This document shows positions 244 to 46,608 of a stretch of 64,000 bases of DNA, in pieces; positions within the stretch are counted from its first letter, which is position 1; each line of letters begins with the position of its first letter. The DNA lies in IMG/VR virus record IMGVR_UViG_3300032167_007466, positions 1 to 64,000 of that record; one strand, given 5' to 3'. A program made the position numbers and the translations under genes. Source of the stretch: a virus. Taxonomy: Duplodnaviria; Caudoviricetes. A model generated the notes under the pieces. It did no database searches. It was given only the letters and a program-made list of their open reading frames with translations, and was not told the origin of the DNA.

Positions 244-1830
244 TTAATCCCATGCCCAAAATATTTTCAATATCGGCAGGTTGGTTTGTGGGTTTATTTC
301 TCCGAATACAATTTTATCTATAACATTATCAATGATTTTTCTGTCAATGGACTGTGTTTTTAAAAAATCTTTAATAATCTGTTCAATATCCTCATTAGAA
401 GGTTTGTCCTCATTTGATAGTTCCTTTTCAATTCCAGATATTTTAAAGTTTAAATCGTTCAATTTTTTGTTATAATTTTTATTGTATTGGATGTACTGCT
501 CCAAAGAAATAATCTCATTAAGTCTGTCGCTGTATAGATGCTCCAAAGTTTTTTCTGTTTTTTGTGCTTCGTTTTTAAGTTTTTCAAGTTCAGTTATCTT
601 AAAATCTCGCCTGTCAGTTTTCTTTGTTATTTTATCCAGTATTAAATCCTCGTTAATATCATTGATAATTGCATCTTCAAATTTTTCAAATAGCTGACTC
701 TTGATTGCTTCCAATATAGTATCAATCCTTATGTTAGGCGTAATACATCTGTCTTTTGTTGCATATGCATACTTGTCTCGACATCTAAGATAGTCAATTC
801 TACCATTGACTGTTTTAGAGTGATTTTTTTGCATAGGCTTACCGCAATACGCACAAAAAACTTTACCTGATAAGATATGTACCTTTCCCGTACCAGTAGC
901 CTTTCGTTTTTTAGACAATCTTAACTGAGTTTCCTTAAACATCTCCCGGCTTATTATGGCTTCGTGCATATCATGTATAATAATTCTTTCCTCTTGTTTT
1001 ACATGCCTTACAACTTTTGATTTATAACTAACTTTTTCTTTTAAATGCTGTACTACATCACCACAATATGATTGATTATTTAAAATATCGCCAACCGTGG
1101 TAGTACTCCATGTACCATTTTCTTCTGGTTTATAAAAAAATGTTTTTCTTAAACCGTCTATTTCTTGTTGTTTTCGTGGATTTGGAATACCTCTATCATT
1201 AAGTATACGAGCTATCTTTGCTGCTCCATATCCTTGTAGATGCAATTCATATATTTCCCTTACAACAGGAGCTGTAGCGGGGTTAATCACAAGATGATTC
1301 TTACAATTTTTATCTTTTGAGTATCCATACGGCGGAAATGTTGCTAAATATTCACCTCTCTTCATTTTGTCTTTAAAAACAGCTTTAATGTTTTCAGATA
1401 AATCTTCTAAAAACCATTCATTAATAAGACTATTAATTTGTCGTGCTTTCTTATTGCCCTTGACTTCTGTATCGGCGTTGTCAATTAGGCTGACAAAACG
1501 TATTCCCCATTCTGTAAACCGTCCATGAATATACTGTTCAATCACTTCCATATTACGACTAAATCTAGACTGCGTTTTGCATAAAACAATGTTGAATTTA
1601 CCCTTTCGGGCATCTTCAATCATTCGATTAAATTCAGGACGTGTATTTTCACTTCCCGAATAAGCGCCGCTATAATCCTCGTCGCAATAAATATCGTAAA
1701 TTGCCCAACTATTTTTTATAGCATAATTTAGAAGCATTGATTTTTGGTTTTGTATTGATTCACTCTCATTATCGCCGCTATCCAAGTCTTCTTTTGATAG
1801 TCTTACATATATTGCTGTTAAATTATTCAT
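244..1830 (-). CDS. large serine recombinase (prophage integrase)
   Basis: YVRLS catalytic Ser motif, SRFSRN, PPYGY recombinase domain, CAYC..C..C zinc ribbon, coiled coil. Confidence 0.95.
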   Translation of the reverse strand: MNNLTAIYVRLSKEDLDSGDNESESIQNQKSMLLNYAIKNSWAIYDIYCDEDYSGAYSGSENTRPEFNRMIEDARKGKFNIVLCKTQSRFSRNMEVIEQYIHGRFTEWGIRFVSLIDNADTEVKGNKKARQINSLINEWFLEDLSENIKAVFKDKMKRGEYLATFPPYGYSKDKNCKNHLVINPATAPVVREIYELHLQGYGAAKIARILNDRGIPNPRKQQEIDGLRKTFFYKPEENGTWSTTTVGDILNNQSYCGDVVQHLKEKVSYKSKVVRHVKQEERIIIHDMHEAIISREMFKETQLRLSKKRKATGTGKVHILSGKVFCAYCGKPMQKNHSKTVNGRIDYLRCRDKYAYATKDRCITPNIRIDTILEAIKSQLFEKFEDAIINDINEDLILDKITKKTDRRDFKITELEKLKNEAQKTEKTLEHLYSDRLNEIISLEQYIQYNKNYNKKLNDLNFKISGIEKELSNEDKPSNEDIEQIIKDFLKTQSIDRKIIDNVIDKIVFGEINPQTNLPILKIFWAWD

Positions 1831-27627: not shown

Positions 27628-28284
27628 TTATTTGACCTCATCAAGAGAATCCATAACAGCCTTATAACTTGCACTATTGATATCTTTTGTGTTAAAGTCT
27701 GTGCTTCTTATGGTTGAAACTACATTGTTCATTGCCGTATAAACTGACTGAGTTCCCCAAGTATCGGCTGTGTATGTTCTTGCAAAGTCAGTGTTAATTC
27801 CAAGACTTGCAGCTTCGCCAACTGCGTCCATATTTGCACCAAGAAACATAAATGTCCAAGAATACTTTTCTTGCTGATGTTCAATCATTTCTTTTACTGT
27901 AGACTTTGAAAACTCTTTGCTTGCATTTTCAAAACCATCAGTTGTAATCACAAACATAACTTTGTCCGGTCTTTCGTCTTCAGGTGTAGCACTTAATCTA
28001 CTACCAATTGAATTAATTGTTTTGCCAATTGCATCAAGCAGAGCAGTACAACCTCTCGCATAATATTCTTTTGTTGTAATCGGATTAACCTTTTGAATGT
28101 CTACATGGTCGTGAAGAAGTTCATAGTTGTCATCAAACAGTACGGTTGTTACATAAGCTTCCCCGTCCTCTTTTTTCTGACCTTCAATCATAGAGTTAAA
28201 TCCGCCAATCGTATCATCGGTCAAACTCTGCATTGAACCACTTCTGTCCAAAATGAAGACAATTTCCGTTAAATTTTTCTTCAT
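27628..28284 (-). CDS. von Willebrand factor A domain protein
   Basis: MIDAS DRSGSM, TALLDA, ITTDG.EN, FLGAN. Confidence 0.9.
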   Translation of the reverse strand: MKKNLTEIVFILDRSGSMQSLTDDTIGGFNSMIEGQKKEDGEAYVTTVLFDDNYELLHDHVDIQKVNPITTKEYYARGCTALLDAIGKTINSIGSRLSATPEDERPDKVMFVITTDGFENASKEFSKSTVKEMIEHQQEKYSWTFMFLGANMDAVGEAASLGINTDFARTYTADTWGTQSVYTAMNNVVSTIRSTDFNTKDINSASYKAVMDSLDEVK

Positions 28285-28358
28285 AAATACACTCCTTTTG
28301 TATAATCTACTTAATTATTCTCTATAAATGCCTGATGAAATGTTGCTTTTATGGTAGG

Positions 28359-28769
28359 TTATTCTTTTACATACTTGGCATAGTCAATAGTTTCAAATCC
28401 ATCAAATACATCCGGGTAAAAAATACCTATCCAAAAATCGTCTTGTACATTTTGATAGTAAAGAACATCCTTGTTCCATTCCTGAACTTCATCTATAATT
28501 TCTTTACTAAGTAAACCCAATTCGTCTTTGCAAGCTTCGCTTTCAACTTTGTATGTAATTGCTTTGTATAACTCTTCGTTTTTAGCAATATTTGCATCAA
28601 CAGTTGAATATTCAACGCACAAACACAAAGACATAACTACTACCGCAATTCCTATAACAACAGAAAATAGTCCACTTGCAAACGCAAGACCATCTATGTT
28701 CTCTCTGCATCCTATAATCAACAAAACTATACTTACTACTAATGCAAATAAACATATCCAAAAAATCAT
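28359..28769 (-). CDS. membrane protein
   Basis: Two N-terminal TM segments; bounded by dyad sites. Confidence 0.7.
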   Translation of the reverse strand: MIFWICLFALVVSIVLLIIGCRENIDGLAFASGLFSVVIGIAVVVMSLCLCVEYSTVDANIAKNEELYKAITYKVESEACKDELGLLSKEIIDEVQEWNKDVLYYQNVQDDFWIGIFYPDVFDGFETIDYAKYVKE

Positions 28770-28824
28770 ATTTAATCATCCTTTCAACTAATTATTCTCC
28801 AAAAATCCACTTAAAACGTTGGTT

Positions 28825-29175
28825 TTATTTATTTTTTTCTCTAACTGAAAATATTTTACCCTCCTGATTTATAACATCGTATTTCTCGTAAAATTCCACC
28901 ATAGAAACATCGTCGGAAATTACAACTTGATATTCCGTTGTATATGTTTCTGGTGTGTCACAAGCTGCAACTGCACCAAACATTGCTCCTAAGATAGCAC
29001 CCATAATAACACCTGTTAATATGCCCGCCACTGTCTCACATTGGCAACCACCAATCAACCATCCAATCAAACCAGCAACAACCATTAGGGTAATTAGAAT
29101 GCCCCAAAAGGCTGACCACTCAAAATAAGTAGTTGCAACTACTTCGTACTGATTTAAAATTTCAACACCTACCAT
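28825..29175 (-). CDS. membrane protein
   Basis: Two TM segments; bounded by dyad sites. Confidence 0.7.
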   Translation of the reverse strand: MVGVEILNQYEVVATTYFEWSAFWGILITLMVVAGLIGWLIGGCQCETVAGILTGVIMGAILGAMFGAVAACDTPETYTTEYQVVISDDVSMVEFYEKYDVINQEGKIFSVREKNK

Positions 29176-29221
29176 AATTTCACCTCGCTTTTCTCAATGA
29201 AACACTTGTTTCATCAGGAAT

Positions 29222-29815
29222 TTAACCCCTTAAATACTCCTTAAATGCCTTATAAGTACCGAATTTTTCTTTCCAACCAGCAACAATCTCTGTTGGATTG
29301 AGGTTGAATTCTTTACAAACGTATGTAATATACTCGTTTTCATAAAGTTTCTTTCTTCTCTTGTTGAGTTGTTTTACTTCTGCAAAGACCACATCTCTTG
29401 AAACTTTATATTCCTTCAACAAGTATGCACTGAGGTCGTTTTCTGAATACTCGATAAACTGGCATATCGGACATATAAATTCGGGAACTTCATAGTATCC
29501 ACCATCACTACAGAAATCCTCCCATAAATCATCCTCACTCATTACAAGTAACTCTTCTTCCGTAAAATCTCTGCTATCTTTAATTTTTGAATCCCATCTA
29601 TCTTTGTTCCAAGCGTGTTCTAAAATGATCTTAACAAGTTCTTCTTTAGATGGTTTTTCTAATGCCTCATCACAACAGAAAATATGACCATTAACGCATT
29701 CCATCATATCTGCTTCACTCAGACCCATATCCCAGCCGCTTGCTGTCGCTCCGCAAATCTCACATACATAACTTGAACTACTGCTATTTGTTACAAAGTC
29801 TTTCCTAAATTTCAT
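29222..29815 (-). CDS. DFVTNSSSSS-motif protein with Cys clusters
   Basis: MKFRKDFVTNSSSSSY; CEIC, C..GH.FC, CPIC. Confidence 0.85.
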   Translation of the reverse strand: MKFRKDFVTNSSSSSYVCEICGATASGWDMGLSEADMMECVNGHIFCCDEALEKPSKEELVKIILEHAWNKDRWDSKIKDSRDFTEEELLVMSEDDLWEDFCSDGGYYEVPEFICPICQFIEYSENDLSAYLLKEYKVSRDVVFAEVKQLNKRRKKLYENEYITYVCKEFNLNPTEIVAGWKEKFGTYKAFKEYLRG

Positions 29816-30247
29816 TTATTCTCCCTCCAATATCACAAAGTTTTCTTTGTCTTCCGCAAGTTCTCTAAGCATATTTGAGCAATATGTATCACTATAATCT
29901 ACTCTTTTGTCAAGGATACTAAATCCTTTTTCTAAATGTTCAATAACCTTGTTGTAATTTTCAGTTAAATATTCATCATCTTCGAGAACCTTTTCAACTG
30001 TATCAGCATCACGCCAACCGTATTCATAAACAAAATGCTTGTCCCATTCTTCTTTGGTCTTATAAACTTTTCCAGCGTTTGTATCGTTGTCACCTTCGGT
30101 AAACAAAACCTTTTCAATTAAACTACCATAATTTTTGAGAAACGGATATTTTTCAATTGTTTCTTCATCGAATTCCGGTAGCGTTTTATACGCAATCACA
30201 TAACTACTACTACTTGAATTTGTCACAAAATCATTTCTTATCTTCAT
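29816..30247 (-). CDS. DFVTNSSSSS-motif protein
   Basis: MKIRNDFVTNSSSSSY. Confidence 0.85.
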   Translation of the reverse strand: MKIRNDFVTNSSSSSYVIAYKTLPEFDEETIEKYPFLKNYGSLIEKVLFTEGDNDTNAGKVYKTKEEWDKHFVYEYGWRDADTVEKVLEDDEYLTENYNKVIEHLEKGFSILDKRVDYSDTYCSNMLRELAEDKENFVILEGE

Positions 30248-30248
30248 A

Positions 30249-30629
30249 TTAAAACGTCCTTATCTTTATTTTTTCTGAGTTTACCCTATTGCCGTACTCA
30301 TATAGGAATGTTTCAAGTATATATCCGTCTTCACCAGAACATTCTCCACCAACAATAAACCAGTCTCCGAGTTCCATTTTGTAGTCTTCTCCCAAGATTT
30401 CATCGGCAATAAACTCTTTTAATGCCGTTTCTGCCTTGTTTTTATCAGGGTTCTGGAGTTCAAATTTTAATACGTCGTCTGGAATATAACCATATTCCAA
30501 AACATCATCAACCATTTGTTTCAACGACCCCATATTTTCAATTATGTCGTCTTTAGTACAATCATTTTTCTTTGCTATAACATAACTACTACTCGAAGAA
30601 TTAGTAACATAGTCTGTTCTTATTTTCAT
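30249..30629 (-). CDS. DFVTNSSSSS-motif protein
   Basis: MKIRTDYVTNSSSSSY. Confidence 0.85.
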   Translation of the reverse strand: MKIRTDYVTNSSSSSYVIAKKNDCTKDDIIENMGSLKQMVDDVLEYGYIPDDVLKFELQNPDKNKAETALKEFIADEILGEDYKMELGDWFIVGGECSGEDGYILETFLYEYGNRVNSEKIKIRTF

Positions 30630-30640
30630 TAAATTCCTCC

Positions 30641-30940
30641 TTAGTGATGTGATTCGCCAAATTCAACAGAGACCTCATCTGTGTTATACAGATAATCGTT
30701 ACCCCAACTGCCAAACTCAGAATGAATAAAGTTTTCAAATGCACCATCATCTCCATGGTCTCCGCATTCAAGGTCGATACTTTGTCCCGGCTCCAATACA
30801 AACCTATCTTTGGCATCTTCAATGATTCTCTCAAACATCTTACGAGCTACCTCTTCACTTGTAAGAATCTTGTCTGTGTTGTTTGTGATAATAAAGCTTG
30901 ATGAACTACTATTAGTCACAAAATCTTTGCGTGCTTTCAT
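30641..30940 (-). CDS. DFVTNSSSSS-motif protein
   Basis: MKARKDFVTNSSSSSF; RBS inside the rSAM 3' end. Confidence 0.85.
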   Translation of the reverse strand: MKARKDFVTNSSSSSFIITNNTDKILTSEEVARKMFERIIEDAKDRFVLEPGQSIDLECGDHGDDGAFENFIHSEFGSWGNDYLYNTDEVSVEFGESHH

Positions 30941-32012
30941 ATAAATCTTTCTCCTCTCTATTACATAAAACAATTTGTCTTCTTATAGGGCAACCGCCTC
31001 TACATTCGCATTGTCTACTACAACCGCTACAAGAATTTCTGAAATGGTCACGAAAATCTTCAAACTGTTTGCTATTCCAAGCGTTCTGTACCGTATCGTT
31101 TGAGATATCATAAGCCCATCTCATATCTTGATTATCAAAACTGCAAGGCAACATCTTCATATCAGATGTGATATAAGCAGACCATCTTCCGCCCTCACAA
31201 GTATCAAAACTATCCTCGTTGATATTAGATGTCATATTGATAAGAGCTGGAACTGTGCAAGAATCAAATCCAATCTTGAAATCAAACTGCTGAGTATCAA
31301 TAATATTGAAGAACTTCTTAACCCTTTCGTCGTTGATATCCAACACATTGCTTTCCTGACCTAATCCAACAGGCTTATGCAATAAGAAAATAATTGCATT
31401 GATTCCTTTCGGAAAATCATTGTTTTCAAGTCTCTCAATAGCTTCGTCTATAGAGTTATTCCCCAAAACATAATGAATGTTTGTCTTAATTCCTGCATCG
31501 AGTAGCATCTGAATTGCTCTATATGTATGCTCCTGACGATACCAACTGATTGCAACTGCACCACAAAGTTCTTTGCAAAGTGCTACAATTTCATCTGTAA
31601 ATCCTAATCCCGAAGATGTAAAATTGGGAACAATGCCATTCTCTCTACAATATCTAAGGATTTTCTCAAAATCTTCGTGCTGGTCAACATCACCTCTGCC
31701 ACCTAAAGCAAACTGAAATGTTTTACCTTTGCACTCATCAACAATTCTCTTGAAATTTTCAAAAGACATATTAGGGAATTTAGTCTTTAATCCGTTCTGA
31801 TAGCACTGAACACCCGACTTAATACATAGTCCTGATGCTCCGTGAACACAATGCCCCATAATTCCTATGTCCAAAAGTTCCGGAAATGAGGTCATAAAAG
31901 GGTCAACACCCGTGTCCTGACCATCTTCAATAACTCCACTTCTCATGTAAAACCCTGTTTTGGGATTGAACATAGAAACAAATTTGTTCTTTTTATCAAT
32001 CTTTTTAATCAT
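30912..32012 (-). CDS. radical SAM/SPASM-domain protein
   Basis: Cys triad CVHGASGLCIKSGVQCYQ, ALGGRGD, SPASM C..G, PC, CSGC.....CRGGC. Confidence 0.9.
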   Translation of the reverse strand: MIKKIDKKNKFVSMFNPKTGFYMRSGVIEDGQDTGVDPFMTSFPELLDIGIMGHCVHGASGLCIKSGVQCYQNGLKTKFPNMSFENFKRIVDECKGKTFQFALGGRGDVDQHEDFEKILRYCRENGIVPNFTSSGLGFTDEIVALCKELCGAVAISWYRQEHTYRAIQMLLDAGIKTNIHYVLGNNSIDEAIERLENNDFPKGINAIIFLLHKPVGLGQESNVLDINDERVKKFFNIIDTQQFDFKIGFDSCTVPALINMTSNINEDSFDTCEGGRWSAYITSDMKMLPCSFDNQDMRWAYDISNDTVQNAWNSKQFEDFRDHFRNSCSGCSRQCECRGGCPIRRQIVLCNREEKDLYESTQRFCD

Positions 32013-32143
32013 TTTTTACAACCTCACTTAATTATTCTCCGTAATTTTGCCAATAAAACCTTTCTTCTGTGGAGAGTTTTTTCAACTTTCTGATTAGAAA
32101 CCAGACTACTTAGGGGCTCCACATACCCATCTACTACTTTGGC

Positions 32144-33532
32144 TTACGCTATCCGTAGATACTTTAAATTTTTGTACCTTTCAATATGAATGTCTTTTCC
32201 ATTAAAGTTAAGTATATTCATAGCACCGACTAAATCACGATGTTGCTCATAACCACACTGACATATGTAGTTTCTGCCACTCGGCTTATGTCTTTCGCCA
32301 CAATGAGGGCAAGTTTGAGAACTGAACGCTTCCGAAACTTTAACAAGTTCAATACCATACCTGCTTAACTTATTCTCTAACTGTAATGTCAATAGACCAT
32401 AACACCAATCACGAAGTTTTTGATTAGTGTAACCATTAAATTTTCCGTGATGTCCTCTTGTGCAAGAGTCTAAATCACCATAATATACTTTTGATATGTT
32501 ATTCTCAATACAGTAATCAAGATACAATTTACTTATCTTATGAACACAGTCCAAAATCTGCCTATCTGTTTTTAACTTCAACTTATAGATGGCACGACTG
32601 TATTTCTTGTACTGCCTACTGCCTTTGGTTAACTTGTCTCTCTTGCTCCTTAGTTTTGCCTGTTCTTTGTTTTGAAGCCTCTTGATACTCCTAATCTTCC
32701 TACCCGTTATAATGACGGCATCGCCATTATTATCAATAGAAGATATACTATGTATTTCTCCAAAATCAATAGCAGCAACATTTTCCTCTTTGATGTCTGT
32801 ATTGGCTTTAGGTTCTTTGTATTTGACTGCAAAACAAAGCCCGTTGCGATATATTAACTCTATTTCTACAATGTGTTTTGGCATTGTTTTAAACCAACAT
32901 CTCACTTGTTTTTGAGGACGCCCGTTTTCGTCAACCTTTTTAGCAAGTTTAAGAATTTTGTTTTTATAATCGACAACAAAGCTAAAGACATTCCAACAAA
33001 CCACGAAATACTTTTTCTTTTTATATGGCAATTCGACTTTCTTGCTGTTGGTGTGGTCTGAAGTCATAGACTTATACATTGCATCTCTTGCGGTATAATA
33101 TTTTATAAACACACCCTGATTCCCAACTGCATGAAGTGGAGTTTTGTTTTTTACAAAAGACTGCAACTCTCCCTTTTTCATGTATCTACCGTTCTGATTA
33201 TGGAATTCTTTATCAGCATCAACTATCGCATTCCAACAGTCGCCAGCCCAACGGCTACACTGCATCAGATATTGGTAATCTTTACTGGAGCATTTCACAG
33301 GAATAATCATTGTTTTATAAAAATACCCATTCTCAAATCCCGGCAACGGATACTTATATATTTTGTTAATTTTAATGTGCCTGTTGTCCGTTCTTTCAAA
33401 TTCAAAATATCTTTCAAATTCTTCAAGTAATTCAACCTTTTTATTGGTTCCAGTCTCGCATTTAACTTCTAGTCGTTCACACAAAGTTCTATATTCGTAT
33501 ATTTCGCCAACCTGAATGTTCTCAATTTTCGT
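32144..33532 (-). CDS. tnpB: TnpB (IS200/IS605 OrfB) with N-terminal extension
   Basis: RuvC-I AIDFG, RuvC-II YGDL, SQTCPHC..CQCG, RuvC-III HRDLVGAMNI; frame open up to ACG 8 nt after GGAGG; no tnpA. Confidence 0.9.
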   Translation of the reverse strand, partial: TKIENIQVGEIYEYRTLCERLEVKCETGTNKKVELLEEFERYFEFERTDNRHIKINKIYKYPLPGFENGYFYKTMIIPVKCSSKDYQYLMQCSRWAGDCWNAIVDADKEFHNQNGRYMKKGELQSFVKNKTPLHAVGNQGVFIKYYTARDAMYKSMTSDHTNSKKVELPYKKKKYFVVCWNVFSFVVDYKNKILKLAKKVDENGRPQKQVRCWFKTMPKHIVEIELIYRNGLCFAVKYKEPKANTDIKEENVAAIDFGEIHSISSIDNNGDAVIITGRKIRSIKRLQNKEQAKLRSKRDKLTKGSRQYKKYSRAIYKLKLKTDRQILDCVHKISKLYLDYCIENNISKVYYGDLDSCTRGHHGKFNGYTNQKLRDWCYGLLTLQLENKLSRYGIELVKVSEAFSSQTCPHCGERHKPSGRNYICQCGYEQHRDLVGAMNILNFNGKDIHIERYKNLKYLRIA

Positions 33533-33597
33533 ATTTTACACCTCCCCTCAATACATTATTCTCCATAATTCCCTGATAAAATAAGAATTTCAACTAC

Positions 33598-33942
33598 TCA
33601 ACATCTCGATTTTGTTAATTCGCCATTAAAGTAATCATAACAGGTAGTTGTTCCATTATCGTATATCACCACAACCTCGCCTTCATAGTTTTGAATTTTA
33701 CTATGTAATTCTGTTGAATTGCCATATCTGTATCCTAATATTGTTGGATTATAACACTTTCTTTTATCAAACAACTCTTCTCTAATCTCGTGATTCAGCT
33801 CATCAAAATTTATCTCTGGGAACAAATCAGGGAATTCTTCCATAATTTTCTGACTTTCCCAATAAGTTACATCATCTTGTGTGCGTAAAAACATCATCAC
33901 AATAGATTTATATACGCTTTTCACTTTGTCTTTTTTGTTCAT
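33598..33942 (-). CDS. hypothetical protein
   Basis: RBS AAGGAGG; bounded by dyad sites. Confidence 0.7.
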   Translation of the reverse strand: MNKKDKVKSVYKSIVMMFLRTQDDVTYWESQKIMEEFPDLFPEINFDELNHEIREELFDKRKCYNPTILGYRYGNSTELHSKIQNYEGEVVVIYDNGTTTCYDYFNGELTKSRC

Positions 33943-41665: not shown

Positions 41666-43495
41666 TTATTCAGAAATATATTTTATAAAATATTTTTTTT
41701 GATTTTCTAAGGCACTTCTTTCTTGTCTACCCAACCACTTTCCGATTAATTTGTCATCAATTTCGCTTTTTGTCATAGTTGAATAATCTACACCATTATC
41801 ATCTATGTAATCCCTTGCATACTCTTCAGTTATAGACTTGAAACTATTATATATTTCCTCAAAAGAATCTTTGTTTTCATACATAAACGATAGCTTCTTA
41901 TGTATTTGTTCCTTGTTTGATTTGTCAAGTTTTCGACCTATAAAGTCAACCATATAATACGGAATGCAATATCTATCTTTCCTTCCTTGTTCTAATCCGC
42001 CAGATTTTAAATATATTAAGTATATCCAAATCATACTATCTATAGTCAGCATTTTATCTATATTTAAAGAAAAATCTTTAAAATATTTGGGCGAATTCTT
42101 TTTAACGGTCTTACTTCCATGCTTAAATGCAATATATCCGTTTTGGCAAAATGCAATAAGTGCCTTTAAAAGCTTGTCTAACGGAATAAAAAGGTCTTCT
42201 TTTTTCTCATATCCAACCCCTACAATTTGACGAATCTGCTTTGACCTTTCTATCAATTTAGAAAAATCATCATTATAATTTTTCCTAAAAGTATTCTCAT
42301 CACTTTTTTTAACAAGCAACAAAAAACCTTTATTTTCAAATTCTTTTTGCAAATTCAAAAAATAATTTTCTTGTGCAACAAAATCATCCATTTTAATAGG
42401 AGTTTGACTATTGGTATATTTAACTATGTTATTGTATAACTCTTCTTCATCATTCCTATCTAATTCATAAAATTTAACTAAAACAAATATTTTACTAAAA
42501 TCAGCCAACGCTTTTTTGCCAATTTCCTTTTCAAGTTCATTTATCACCATACATATAGAATTGGTTGTTTGGCATCCGTTAACAATTTTAGGATTATCAA
42601 CATCAATAAACGAGTCCCCTTTATCCCTATATACTTCTCCTATTTTATCGCATATAATAGTAATTCCATTGTTAAATAAGAAAAAATTATTACGTTGTTC
42701 AGCATTCTTTAAAGTGGCGACCATAGATTTGTTAACACTTCCAATTCGCCCTTTTACACCTAAAAAATCTCTAACATTTTTGTCAAACAAATCATATCCA
42801 ATACTATCTGCTGCATTTTTCATATTATAAATTTCACTAAGAGGAAGGGCAACATATTTTGAATCTATAATATTATCCTGTTTTTCACCAAGAGAAATAA
42901 CTTTATTTTTTGTTCCAACTTTTAATTTATGTGGAAAGTTAATTTTCTTTTCATTTCTTACTCCAAAATATAATTCATATATCCTGTCAAGTGGAATAAA
43001 TTCAGCTGCATATTCACACTGTACATCACAAATGAAATCATTAAAAATATTCTTTATATCTAAATATTCACCAATATTTGCAGTATATAGCTGAATGTAA
43101 ATTTTATATTCTTTGTCTTGGACTGCACAAGCAAATATATTTTTTAATTCATTTGATTTTTTATACGTTCCGTTCAACAATTGTGATTTTATAATACTTA
43201 AAAAGTCTATGGCATCATTTCTTCTCAATCCCGAAGGGTAATACTTATTTTGAATAATATATAACTCTTTTGTATCTTCATAATGAATATAACAATCTAT
43301 TCCGTTACCAGACTTCTCAACGATATGATCTGGAATACACTCCATATCTATATTGAACAGATGGTTTAATACCCAATAATTAAAAGCGTATTGCTCATCC
43401 TTAATATTTTCGTCTATGACACCCCAATCCTGTTGTATGTGTGTAATATCTTCTTTTATTTGCAACAAGAAATTCTTCACAACCAAACACTCCAA
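41666..43495 (-). CDS. AIPR (abortive infection phage resistance) family protein
   Basis: GIDC, NVRDFLG, FFLFNNGITII, IVNGCQT, TNSQ. Confidence 0.88.
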   Translation of the reverse strand: MECLVVKNFLLQIKEDITHIQQDWGVIDENIKDEQYAFNYWVLNHLFNIDMECIPDHIVEKSGNGIDCYIHYEDTKELYIIQNKYYPSGLRRNDAIDFLSIIKSQLLNGTYKKSNELKNIFACAVQDKEYKIYIQLYTANIGEYLDIKNIFNDFICDVQCEYAAEFIPLDRIYELYFGVRNEKKINFPHKLKVGTKNKVISLGEKQDNIIDSKYVALPLSEIYNMKNAADSIGYDLFDKNVRDFLGVKGRIGSVNKSMVATLKNAEQRNNFFLFNNGITIICDKIGEVYRDKGDSFIDVDNPKIVNGCQTTNSICMVINELEKEIGKKALADFSKIFVLVKFYELDRNDEEELYNNIVKYTNSQTPIKMDDFVAQENYFLNLQKEFENKGFLLLVKKSDENTFRKNYNDDFSKLIERSKQIRQIVGVGYEKKEDLFIPLDKLLKALIAFCQNGYIAFKHGSKTVKKNSPKYFKDFSLNIDKMLTIDSMIWIYLIYLKSGGLEQGRKDRYCIPYYMVDFIGRKLDKSNKEQIHKKLSFMYENKDSFEEIYNSFKSITEEYARDYIDDNGVDYSTMTKSEIDDKLIGKWLGRQERSALENQKKYFIKYISE

Positions 43496-45562: not shown

Positions 45563-46543
45563 TCACATCATTCTCAATAAATCCCCAACACCAAATGCAG
45601 CATTGACATAATTTCCAACAGTTGTTTCTATATCCTTATGCCCCAAATTCTGTGCCACAAACTGGATGTCTGCTCTTTTTGCCATAACAGTAGAATAATA
45701 ATGTCTTATCTGATGTGGAGTAATTCCATTGCCATAATTCTTAAAGATAGCAATAACTGTATCAGCCGAAATACTCGTGTTGTTTTTTGTTATAAATACA
45801 GCATTGATATTTTCCACTCCGTCAATTTCTTGTCTTATCTCAAGCCATTTTTCAAGAGCAGACAACGCTGTTCCTGTTATAAATACCTTTCGTTTATCAT
45901 CTTCTTCATAATAACCTTTACCAAGCACAGTAATATAAGGTATATCTTCCTCAAAATGAAGGTCTGATATTTCCAATCCCGCAAGCTCGCTCTCTCTTAT
46001 TCCTGAACCTAAAAGTGTTTGAAGCATAGCAATATTCCGCTCTCTCACTATTTTATCCTTTTTCCATTGTATGCGTTCAAACATTTCATCTATTTGTTTT
46101 TTATCAGGCAATTTAGCATAGATATTTTCAACATTATTTTTCTTGCCTTTATAACCACATGTTTTTACCGGATTCTTTTCCAGTTTACTATTTGGAGACT
46201 CAACTAAATTTGAAAAGAAGGATGACAATATATTTTTTCGTGTTGTTAAAGTTGTACGACTCATTCCTTCTGTTTGTCTCTGTTTTAAATATAGAAATAC
46301 ATCTGCCGGCTCCAGTGTGTTAAATGAATTTGGAGTTAGTTCAGAGATTCCTTTCTCCGTAATTAAAGCATTTTCCACAAGCCACAAAAGAAAATCCTTA
46401 ATGGCAATATAGTAATTTCTCGCACTAGCTTTACTATATAATTTATATAAGTACTTCCGTATAAATAATGGTGTTTTATCTTTGTCAAATTCTGCAAACA
46501 ATTTATCCTCATTGTGTCTTTGAACATTGTCTTTATAACACAT
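45563..46543 (-). CDS. tyrosine recombinase (XerC/D-like), catalytic residues intact
   Basis: GIRESEL (R), GKG (K), HQIRH (HxxR), LGH (H), GNY (Y); SAM-like N-terminal domain. Confidence 0.93.
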   Translation of the reverse strand: MCYKDNVQRHNEDKLFAEFDKDKTPLFIRKYLYKLYSKASARNYYIAIKDFLLWLVENALITEKGISELTPNSFNTLEPADVFLYLKQRQTEGMSRTTLTTRKNILSSFFSNLVESPNSKLEKNPVKTCGYKGKKNNVENIYAKLPDKKQIDEMFERIQWKKDKIVRERNIAMLQTLLGSGIRESELAGLEISDLHFEEDIPYITVLGKGYYEEDDKRKVFITGTALSALEKWLEIRQEIDGVENINAVFITKNNTSISADTVIAIFKNYGNGITPHQIRHYYSTVMAKRADIQFVAQNLGHKDIETTVGNYVNAAFGVGDLLRMM

Positions 46544-46608
46544 TTTAATCCTTCCTTTCTGTAATTTAAGTATAAAAAACAACAGCCAACCGAAATCGGC
46601 TGTTTAAA

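What the first reader, a model, noticed from the sequence alone, without database searches (positions are those of the whole stretch)
29222..32012. Radical SAM/SPASM enzyme followed by four unrelated proteins sharing the N-terminal tag MKxRxD(F/Y)VTNSSSSS(Y/F)
SEEN: four tandem genes whose products share only the first 16 residues. The Ser runs use different codons (AGCAGTAGTTCAAGT, TCAAGTAGTAGTAGT, TCTTCGAGTAGTAGT, AGTAGTTCATCAAGC), so the tag is conserved at protein level. The fourth gene overlaps the rSAM stop. The five-gene block has its own GAGAATAAT motif (32031) and is bracketed by dyad sites 29198 and 32054. KNOWN: SPASM enzymes modify peptides or proteins (e.g. anSME Ser/Cys to formylglycine, RiPP cross-links). 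INFERENCE: a phage-borne protein-maturation system in which one enzyme installs a modification or cofactor on a portable tag of several client proteins. I know of no characterised function for it.
Basis: partly seen in the sequence, partly recalled or inferred. Interest (0 to 1): 0.82.

Follow-up and report, generated by a model that had tools for sequence, protein, structure and literature searches.

The report
Phage radical-SAM enzyme with tagged proteins
A large phage of an anaerobic bacterium encodes an iron-sulfur "radical SAM" enzyme followed by four otherwise unrelated small acidic proteins that start with the same 16 residues; the same enzyme-plus-tag pair recurs in many phages and inside bacterial and archaeal immune operons, and no paper I found says what it does.

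Summary
On the minus strand, a 366-aa radical SAM/SPASM gene (30912-32012) is followed by four genes (99, 126, 143 and 197 aa). All four products begin MK-x-R-x-D-[FY]-VTNSSSSS-[FY], and about half of the identical residues use different codons. Past residue 20 they show no BLAST similarity to each other.

Enzyme and tag travel together:
- 16 of 16 viral loci found through the enzyme carry 2-6 tagged genes directly downstream.
- 44 of 50 viral contigs found through the tag carry the enzyme, including 14 of 14 near-complete genomes.
- 80 of 80 bacterial and archaeal loci found through the enzyme have one tagged ~133-aa gene directly upstream, in an operon with an Avs2-like STAND NTPase.

Adjacency is not absolute. 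In metagenome loci with enough flank, 11 of 17 have the enzyme nearby. T4-like phage GAP161 keeps two tagged genes 20-24 kb from its enzyme.

AlphaFold models of two tagged proteins have different architectures. In both, residues 1 to about 10 form a low-confidence free tail and the Ser-[FY]-[IV] end of the tag is strand 1.

My reading is that the tail docks in the enzyme and is probably modified; no modification has been shown. Earlier reports of this scan describe the same system on other DNA. The nearest published case is KpAvs2-Avap1-Avap2, which is uncharacterised.

The parts
30912..32012 (-). Radical SAM/SPASM enzyme, 366 aa. Cluster motif is C55-X7-C63-X6-C70, and the SPASM cysteines are present.
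   Evidence: Pfam SPASM PF13186 scores 26 bits against a cut-off of 21.5. NCBIfam gives partial hits to rSAM/SPASM maturases. phrog_7293 hits at 2e-30. A family profile hits SkfB, SuiB, PqqE and anSME in the PDB. The family alignment shows the three Cys aligned with the canonical CX3CX2C of cellular relatives.
30641..30940 (-). Tagged protein A, 99 aa, pI 4.5. Its start overlaps the rSAM end by 29 nt.
   Evidence: It falls in its own body cluster of 6 members.
30249..30629 (-). Tagged protein B, 126 aa, pI 4.4.
   Evidence: Body cluster of 8 members.
29816..30247 (-). Tagged protein C, 143 aa, pI 4.5. Its body is weakly similar to the cellular tagged family.
   Evidence: It has 427 relatives in the protein collection, none with a Pfam domain. 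Body-only hhalign to the cellular family gives 35% probability, E 4e-4.
29222..29815 (-). Tagged protein D, 197 aa, pI 4.7. The tag is followed at once by CxxC...CxNGH and a second CPxC, probably zinc-binding, then a helical domain.
   Evidence: invariant C18, C21, C40, H44, C115, C118. The AlphaFold model has pLDDT 90, with residues 1-11 below 50 and strand 13-17. No PDB match.
32031..32039 (-). GAGAATAAT, the promoter-like motif ahead of the rSAM start.
   Evidence: 15 copies in the window against 1.7 expected, all co-oriented with the genes. A promoter function is inferred, not shown.
29198..29213 (.). Palindrome TGAAACAAGTGTTTCA just after the last tagged gene.
   Evidence: Read. No intrinsic terminator is predicted in 28700-33700. 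Function unknown.

Best explanation
This is a two-part module. One part is a conserved radical SAM/SPASM enzyme. The other is a set of small acidic proteins that carry a 16-residue N-terminal handle (M-K-[IVF]-[RK]-x-[DG]-[FY]-V-[TS]-N-S-S-S-[ST]-S-[FY]). The first ten or so residues hang free from the folded body. I infer that they insert into the enzyme, which has no separate leader-binding domain but has a family-specific conserved 45-residue N-terminus. The enzyme then most likely performs radical chemistry on the handle. Candidate sites are the invariant N-S-S-S stretch or the F-V-T triplet. The modified proteins are the working parts. In bacteria and archaea a single tagged protein serves an Avs2-like STAND immune NTPase. 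In phages, an array of 1-7 fast-changing tagged proteins probably acts on host functions, plausibly counter-defence. Shown here: the gene linkage, the portability of the tag, and the predicted free tail. Inferred: physical docking (about 0.8), covalent modification (about 0.5), and a role in phage-host conflict (about 0.6).
For: Linkage from the enzyme side:
- 16 of 16 viral loci have 2-6 tagged genes directly downstream.
- 80 of 80 cellular loci from many phyla, plus Methanoregula and a Micrarchaeota archaeon, have a tagged gene directly upstream.

Linkage from the tag side:
- 44 of 50 viral contigs carry the enzyme, including 14 of 14 records at least 90% complete. Tags lie on the enzyme's strand, and the reversed-pattern control gives 0.
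- At least 3 of the 6 contigs without the enzyme have the tag at a contig end.

Conservation and portability:
- N10, S11, S12, T14 and S15 are invariant in an alignment of 32 of the 80 cellular proteins, which were retrieved without reference to the tag.
- The aspartate sits at position 6 from the start Met in 207 of 212 phage proteins.
- Bodies are diverse, with 34 BLAST clusters and two different predicted architectures.
- In both models the most conserved residues (1-9 and 1-11) have pLDDT below 50. This is the usual picture for a peptide that folds only on a partner.

Enzyme:
- Its nearest solved relatives all act on peptides or proteins: SkfB, SuiB, PqqE and anSME.

Arms-race pattern and cellular context:
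- Arrays differ (2, 4, 5 or 6 genes) beside enzymes that are 94-95% identical.
- Median pI of the tagged proteins is 4.6.
- 70 of 73 cellular loci with enough upstream sequence have a homologous STAND NTPase. The three scanned match PADLOC Avs2 models at 1e-21 to 1e-24.
- In the KpAvs2 operon, the radical SAM protein Avap1 is needed for defence against T2, and Avap2 binds Avs2 (PMC11564622).
Against: - No chemistry is shown.
- The window's enzyme lacks the canonical CX3CX2C spacing and is not matched by Pfam Radical_SAM. A few family members have lost the cluster cysteines (P0141, P0135).
- Adjacency fails in about a third of well-flanked metagenome loci (11 of 17 have the enzyme).
- Two large phage contigs carry tag arrays but no enzyme: G016 at 78% and G013 at 84% estimated completeness.
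- The FVSNSSSSS form of the tag had the enzyme in its locus in only 1 of 10 metagenome loci, most of them short.
- T4-like phages keep the tagged genes 20-24 kb from the enzyme.
- Avap1 was dispensable for defence against one phage (PMC11564622).
- No complex could be modelled with the tools at hand.
Confidence: 0.55

Rival explanations
1. Docking without modification. The tag is only a handle that holds each protein on the enzyme. The tagged proteins act as adaptors: each brings a different third party, such as a host defence protein or the STAND NTPase in cells, to the enzyme. The radical chemistry falls on that third party or on a small molecule.
For: The evidence is the same linkage, portability and free tail. 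Diverse bodies on one constant handle is the layout of adaptor families. Avap2 binds KpAvs2 physically (PMC11564622).
Against: The run N-S-S-S-[ST]-S is invariant across bacteria, archaea and phages. That is more constraint than docking peptides usually show. The nearest solved relatives of the enzyme modify the very peptide they bind. I could not show that Avap2 is a tagged protein.
Confidence: 0.25
2. The tag has its own job unrelated to the enzyme, and the enzyme is merely co-inherited in the same variable region. Examples would be a capsid-targeting or ejection signal like that of T4 internal proteins, a degron, or a translation-start element.
For: T4 internal proteins are unrelated small proteins with a shared N-terminal targeting peptide (from my own knowledge of T4, not tested here). 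Tagged genes can lie far from the enzyme. Some contigs lack the enzyme.
Against: The same tag sits next to the enzyme in 80 of 80 cellular STAND operons, which have no capsid genes. All 14 near-complete tag-bearing phage genomes have the enzyme. Conservation is at the protein level, with diverged codons. That excludes an RNA or DNA element.
Confidence: 0.08
3. All tagged proteins are diverged members of one fold, and the tag is simply its best-kept first strand. Under this reading there is no portable tag.
For: The last residues of the tag form strand 1 in both models. A few phage bodies are true relatives of the cellular family when searched with the body only, at E 2e-7 and 6e-6. Protein C's cluster gives 35% hhalign probability.
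Against: The cellular protein is a four-strand, five-helix alpha/beta domain. Protein D is a zinc-ribbon-like sheet followed by a helical domain. Eleven of the 12 larger phage clusters give 35% probability or less on bodies, most below 5%. No second motif is shared beyond chance. Residues 1-10, the most conserved part, lie outside the fold in both models.
Confidence: 0.07

Closest known systems
KpAvs2-Avap1-Avap2 operon of Klebsiella pneumoniae (Bechon et al. 2024, Nat Commun 15:9860, PMC11564622)
   Same: [quoted passage not shown] The cellular relatives of the window's enzyme sit in exactly such operons. The paper finds Avap1 needed against some phages, and finds that Avap2 binds Avs2.
   Different: The window has no STAND gene next to the module; it is a phage array of four tagged proteins. 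The cellular operons found here have four genes and shorter NTPases (630-1090 aa, against Avs2 profiles of about 1400-1600 positions). The paper links Avap2 to DUF6375 by HHpred. I found no DUF6375 match in any tagged protein or host genome tested. Identity of Avap2 with the tagged family is therefore unproven. The paper does not mention the N-terminal tag or phage homologs.
Anaerobic sulfatase-maturating enzymes (anSME/AtsB, PDB 4K36-4K39) acting on sulfatases
   Same: This is a SPASM radical SAM enzyme with no leader-binding domain. It modifies a short motif near the N-terminus of whole folded proteins, including Ser, and serves several client proteins. It is detectable by profile at E 2e-11.
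   Different: The TIGR03942 score is 13.9 against a cut-off of 349. The tag has no (C/S)xPxR motif. The clients are small acidic proteins, not sulfatases.
RiPP radical SAM SPASM/twitch maturases with several precursors sharing a leader (SkfB, SuiB, PqqE)
   Same: These are the best sequence matches among solved structures, at E 8e-15 to 8e-12. One enzyme serves many substrates that share a constant recognition peptide.
   Different: The window's enzyme has no RRE/PqqD-like domain: only about 50 residues precede the cluster, where SkfB and SuiB have 110-125. The substrates would be folded proteins of 100-260 aa that keep the tag, not short peptides that are cleaved and exported.
FxsA/FxsB-type peptide systems in NTPase conflict systems (Kaur, Burroughs, Iyer, Aravind 2020, PMC7159879)
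   Same: A radical SAM-SPASM gene sits beside variable proteins with one conserved short piece, inside STAND-type conflict systems.
   Different: There the conserved piece is a C-terminal FxSxx peptide released by a peptidase. Here it is an N-terminal tag with no peptidase gene. NCBIfam gives no match to the FxsB family.

Membership tests
Radical SAM superfamily | Three-cysteine motif, canonically CX3CX2C, that holds the [4Fe-4S] cluster | tested here: inconclusive
   The window has C55-X7-C63-X6-C70. These three Cys align with the canonical CX3CX2C of cellular relatives. Pfam PF04055 does not hit the window protein but hits its Vibrio homolog at 6e-15. Whether the widened motif binds a cluster cannot be tested here.
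Radical SAM superfamily | Homology of the core barrel to known members | tested here: met
   The family profile hits SkfB, SuiB, PqqE and anSME at 8e-15 to 2e-11. NCBIfam gives partial hits to several rSAM maturases.
SPASM domain (PF13186 / TIGR04085) | C-terminal cysteine-rich domain for auxiliary Fe-S clusters | tested here: met
   PF13186 scores 26 bits, above its cut-off of 21.5. TIGR04085 scores 26.3 against a cut-off of 27. C252, C272 and C290 are invariant and C328, C331 and C341 are conserved in at least 90% of the family alignment.
Anaerobic sulfatase maturase (TIGR03942) | Score above the family cut-off, and a substrate motif (C/S)xPxR | tested here: not met
   The score is 13.9 bits against a cut-off of 349. 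No tag contains the motif.
RRE-dependent RiPP maturases | N-terminal PqqD-like recognition element | tested here: not met
   No such Pfam or NCBIfam hit was found. Only about 50 residues precede the cluster motif. The profile alignment starts at residue 111-125 of SkfB and SuiB.
Avs2-Avap1-Avap2 defence operon | Radical SAM gene beside an Avs2-type STAND NTPase | tested here: not met
   In the window the neighbours are a TnpB gene and ORFans, and no PADLOC model hits the module. The feature is met in the cellular homologs: 70 of 73 loci, with Avs2 models at 1e-21 to 1e-24 in the three scanned.
Avs2-Avap1-Avap2 defence operon | Avap2 partner related to DUF6375 (PF19902) | tested here: inconclusive
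   PF19902 finds nothing in the phage record, nothing in 5 genomes that hold the cellular operon and nothing in 400 Gammaproteobacteria. Relatives of the cellular tagged protein carry no Pfam domain.
T4-type capsid-targeting sequence proteins | Shared N-terminal peptide on proteins packaged into the head; a phage-only context | tested here: not met
   The same tag occurs in 80 of 80 cellular operons that have no phage structural genes. Packaging itself cannot be tested here.
Three-residue cyclophane (triceptide) maturases | Aromatic-X-X substrate motif and membership of the XyeB/FxsB-type enzyme families | tested here: inconclusive
   F7-V8-T9 fits the motif by eye, which is a recollection of the family and not a test. 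No NCBIfam hit to those enzyme families was found.

The most novel reading that the evidence does not exclude
A protein-tagging system not yet described and shared by phages, bacteria and archaea. A dedicated radical SAM/SPASM enzyme recognises a portable 16-residue N-terminal peptide and installs a radical-derived modification on whole folded proteins. Immune STAND NTPases use one such modified protein. Phages have copied the enzyme-tag pair to arm a changing set of counter-defence effectors.
Probability: 0.35. Interest if true: 0.9.

Novelty: new variant of a known kind. Interest (0 to 1): 0.8.

Why it matters
If the enzyme modifies the tag, this would be a new post-translational modification of whole proteins. 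It would come with a short transferable tag, which is useful as a tool. It would also give a first handle on what the radical SAM accessory genes of Avs2-type immune operons do, which the only published study left open.

The phage arrays of fast-changing acidic tagged proteins are a ready list of candidate anti-defence proteins.

The system is testable now. Cultured T4-like phages carry both parts: GAP161 directly, and RB16 and KP15 by the record's own annotation.

Tried and rejected
- Pfam, NCBIfam, PHROGs and PADLOC give no named family for any of the four tagged proteins. The only hits are weak N-terminal ones to phrog_7397 and NF041591.
- tblastn of tagged proteins B and D against cultured phages found nothing, probably in part because the Ser run is masked.
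- A second shared motif seen by eye, of the type [CS][SG][DE]G...E.F, did not hold. An HMM of the cellular C-terminal motif scores 0 or more in 17 of 212 phage bodies against 2 shuffled, and regex counts equal the shuffles.
- Body-only hhalign to the cellular family is weak.
- Fold searches of both models against the PDB found nothing: Foldseek gave no hit at E<=0.001 for either, and VIA-align, run on the cellular model only, gave a best Z of 3.6. This does not show that the folds are new.
- The ESM Atlas gave only unnamed, mostly viral clusters.
- DUF6375 could not be tied to the tag, and the paper's supplements are not held.
A blastn of the cellular pair against E. coli genomes found nothing.
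- The radical SAM-SPASM system of Kaur et al. 2020 concerns C-terminal FxSxx peptides and is a different system.
- My first scan of T4-like phages for T-N-S5 was negative because their tag reads S-N-S5. A tag HMM then found two genes.
- The untagged small partner of the cellular operon has no homolog in the window.
- Literature searches for the motif, DUF6375, Avs2 with radical SAM, and RB43 with radical SAM gave only the Bechon paper.
Full report
**What is in the window.**
Five co-directional genes lie on the minus strand:
- a 366-aa radical SAM/SPASM protein (30912-32012);
- four ORFs of 99, 126, 143 and 197 aa (30641-30940, 30249-30629, 29816-30247, 29222-29815).

The first small gene overlaps the enzyme's end by 29 nt, and the last two abut. 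Each small protein begins M-K-x-R-x-D-[FY]-V-T-N-S-S-S-S-S-[FY].

Over these 16 codons the copies are 75-88% identical as protein but only 56-77% as DNA. About half of the identical residues use different codons, so selection acts on the peptide.

The tag occurs four times in the 109-kb phage record and nowhere else. The reversed pattern gives zero matches.

Past residue 20 the four proteins have no BLASTP similarity to each other. All are acidic, with pI 4.4-4.7.

The record is classed as a provirus, 79% complete. The window holds NrdD, a DNA polymerase, a primase/helicase and integrases. A TnpB gene sits just upstream of the module. The NrdD anaerobic reductase fits an anaerobic host, which suits an oxygen-sensitive enzyme.

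**The enzyme.**
- Pfam sees only the SPASM domain. NCBIfam gives partial, far sub-threshold hits to many rSAM/SPASM maturases.
- The family is large: 1804 representatives at E<=1e-3 and 205 at E<=1e-30.
- In the alignment, distant (cellular) members have the canonical CX3CX2C. The window's clade has loops inserted, giving C55-X7-C63-X6-C70. T4-like phages have CX7CX2C. Two members have lost the cysteines.
- The SPASM cysteines are kept.
- By profile, the nearest solved structures are SkfB, SuiB, PqqE and anSME. All of these act on peptides or proteins.
- There is no room for an RRE-type leader-binding domain. Instead there is a family-specific N-terminus of about 45 residues with conserved G20, R24 and P44.

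**Linkage, tested from both sides.**

*From the enzyme:*
- 16 of 16 viral loci (61-95% identity) have 2-6 tagged genes directly downstream.
- The arrays differ in number and content beside enzymes that are 94-95% identical.

*From the tag, in viral contigs:*
- A strict DNA pattern found more than 114 stretches of IMG/VR.
- Of the first 50 distinct contigs, 44 hold an enzyme homolog (39-95% identity), including all 14 records at least 90% complete.
- Tags number 1-7 per contig, lie on the enzyme's strand, and mostly start 0-3 kb downstream. The control pattern gave zero in all 50.
- At least three of the six contigs without the enzyme have the tag at a contig end.
- G016 (78% complete) and G013 (84% complete) carry arrays with no enzyme anywhere in the contig.

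*From the tag, in metagenomes:*
- A scan gave 79 tagged loci. Among the 17 with at least 3 kb upstream and 2 kb downstream, 11 hold the enzyme.
- The FVSNSSSSS variant had the enzyme in 1 of 10 loci, most of them short.

Co-occurrence at genome level is therefore strong. Adjacency is common but not obligatory.

**Cultured phages.**
The enzyme has 29%-identical homologs in 171 T4-like phage records of Klebsiella, Enterobacter, Cronobacter, Citrobacter and Escherichia. Their neighbouring genes are untagged.

A tag HMM run over the whole GAP161 genome found two genes, GAP161_106 and GAP161_111. Both begin MKIRSGFVSNSSSSSF and lie 20-24 kb from the enzyme GAP161_155. The record's notes name RB16 and KP15 homologs. 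This gives laboratory models.

**Cellular relatives.**
A scan of one genome per prokaryotic species found 186 loci with an enzyme homolog; 80 were kept. They come from many bacterial phyla, Methanoregula, Methanosarcinales and a Micrarchaeota archaeon.

In 80 of 80 loci, a protein of about 133 aa beginning MKI[KR]x[DG]FV[ST]NSSSTSF is encoded directly upstream on the same strand. These loci were found without reference to the tag, so this count is unbiased.

The operon order is: STAND NTPase, small untagged protein, tagged protein, enzyme.
- 70 of 73 loci with enough flank have the homologous NTPase.
- The three NTPases scanned match PADLOC Avs2 models on the core at 1e-21 to 1e-24. They carry variable N-terminal effector domains such as SMEK/REase-like or trypsin-like.
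- The cellular tagged proteins form one orthologous family, with invariant N10, S11, S12, T14, S15, G34 and C113.
- RefSeq calls them hypothetical.
- The untagged partner has no homolog in the window.

**Is the tag a strand of one fold?**

| Model | Mean pLDDT | Low-confidence tail (below 50) | First strand | Architecture |
|---|---|---|---|---|
| Cellular tagged protein | 88 | residues 1-9 | 13-20 | four-strand, five-helix domain |
| Window protein D | 90 | residues 1-11 | 13-17 | zinc-ribbon-like sheet, then a helical domain |

The two architectures differ. In both, the most conserved residues lie outside the fold.

Some phage bodies are true relatives of the cellular family: body-only HMM hits at 2e-7 and 6e-6, and protein C's cluster at 35% hhalign probability. 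Most are not, and no second motif is shared beyond chance.

The tag is therefore portable.

**Mechanism.**
The evidence fits a free N-terminal tail that docks into the enzyme. I think covalent modification of the tail is the most likely outcome, at about even odds, for two reasons:
- The N-S-S-S-[ST]-S run is invariant across three domains of hosts.
- The nearest solved relatives modify the peptide they bind.

The main rival is docking only, with the tagged proteins serving as adaptors. Nothing here decides between the two.

A conflict role is inferred from the cellular immune context, the rapid turnover of phage arrays and their acidity. It is also consistent with the published finding that Avap1 is needed for defence against T2 and that Avap2 binds Avs2 (PMC11564622).

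**Known or new.**
The only paper found is Bechon et al. 2024. It names the accessory genes and leaves their roles open. It does not mention the tag or phage homologs. I could not show that Avap2 is a tagged protein.

The radical SAM-SPASM system of Kaur et al. 2020 uses C-terminal FxSxx peptides and is a different system.

Earlier reports of this scan describe the same enzyme-tag pair on other DNA. Their leads to Avs2 and to RB43-like phages were tested here and hold in part.

**Limits.**
- Many viral contigs in the sample are close kin, so the counts are not independent events.
- The tag logo from pattern-found loci is biased by the pattern.
- No complex could be modelled.

Noticed in passing
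window 32144-33484 (-): A TnpB / IS605 OrfB gene (446 aa; Cas12f1-like TNB and OrfB_IS605 domains) lies directly upstream of the rSAM module, between two GAGAATAAT motifs (33555 and 32031).
   Followed up: partly
window, 15 sites (e.g. 28314, 28791, 32031, 33555, 46896): GAGAATAAT occurs 15 times against 1.7 expected. It is always co-oriented with the local genes and switches strand at about 58 kb, where the genes switch. It is probably part of a phage promoter.
   Followed up: partly
alignment A1 (proteins P0141, P0135; window rSAM residues 55-70): The spacing of the Fe-S cluster cysteines varies widely within one rSAM family: CX3CX2C, CX5CX3C, CX7CX2C and CX7CX6C. Two members lack the cysteines altogether and may be inactive.
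   Followed up: no
P0122, P0132, P0134, P0181, P0182; G026 and G043: Some enzyme homologs are 450-790 aa and match in two or three stretches. In two viral contigs the enzyme is in two pieces. These may hold inserted elements (intein or homing endonuclease) or be split genes.
   Followed up: no
L225 (G016:C1:29000-38500) and L226 (G013:C1:47000-55500): Two large phage contigs (121 kb and 198 kb) carry arrays of 4 and 2 tagged genes but no enzyme homolog anywhere in the contig. Either the enzyme lies in the missing part, or it is supplied by the host or another element.
   Followed up: partly
NC_019398.1 66014-66481 and 69916-70428 (L358): Cronobacter phage GAP161 genes GAP161_106 and GAP161_111, annotated hypothetical, begin MKIRSGFVSNSSSSSF. 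The record's notes list homologs in RB16 and KP15.
   Followed up: partly
window 29198-29213: The perfect palindrome TGAAACAAGTGTTTCA lies right after the last tagged gene. Related CCTGATGAAA sequences sit next to GAGAATAAT at 28325-28340 and 33566-33577. No intrinsic terminator is predicted in 28700-33700.
   Followed up: no
window 27628-28284 (-): A 218-aa protein has a DRSGSM motif that looks like a vWA MIDAS site (from memory). Pfam gives no hit; phrog_7371 (unknown function) hits at 1e-61.
   Followed up: no
window 41666-43495 (-), 244-1830 (-), 45563-46582 (-): The same phage window holds an Abi-alpha-like protein (phrog_1841), a large serine recombinase and a tyrosine integrase.
   Followed up: no
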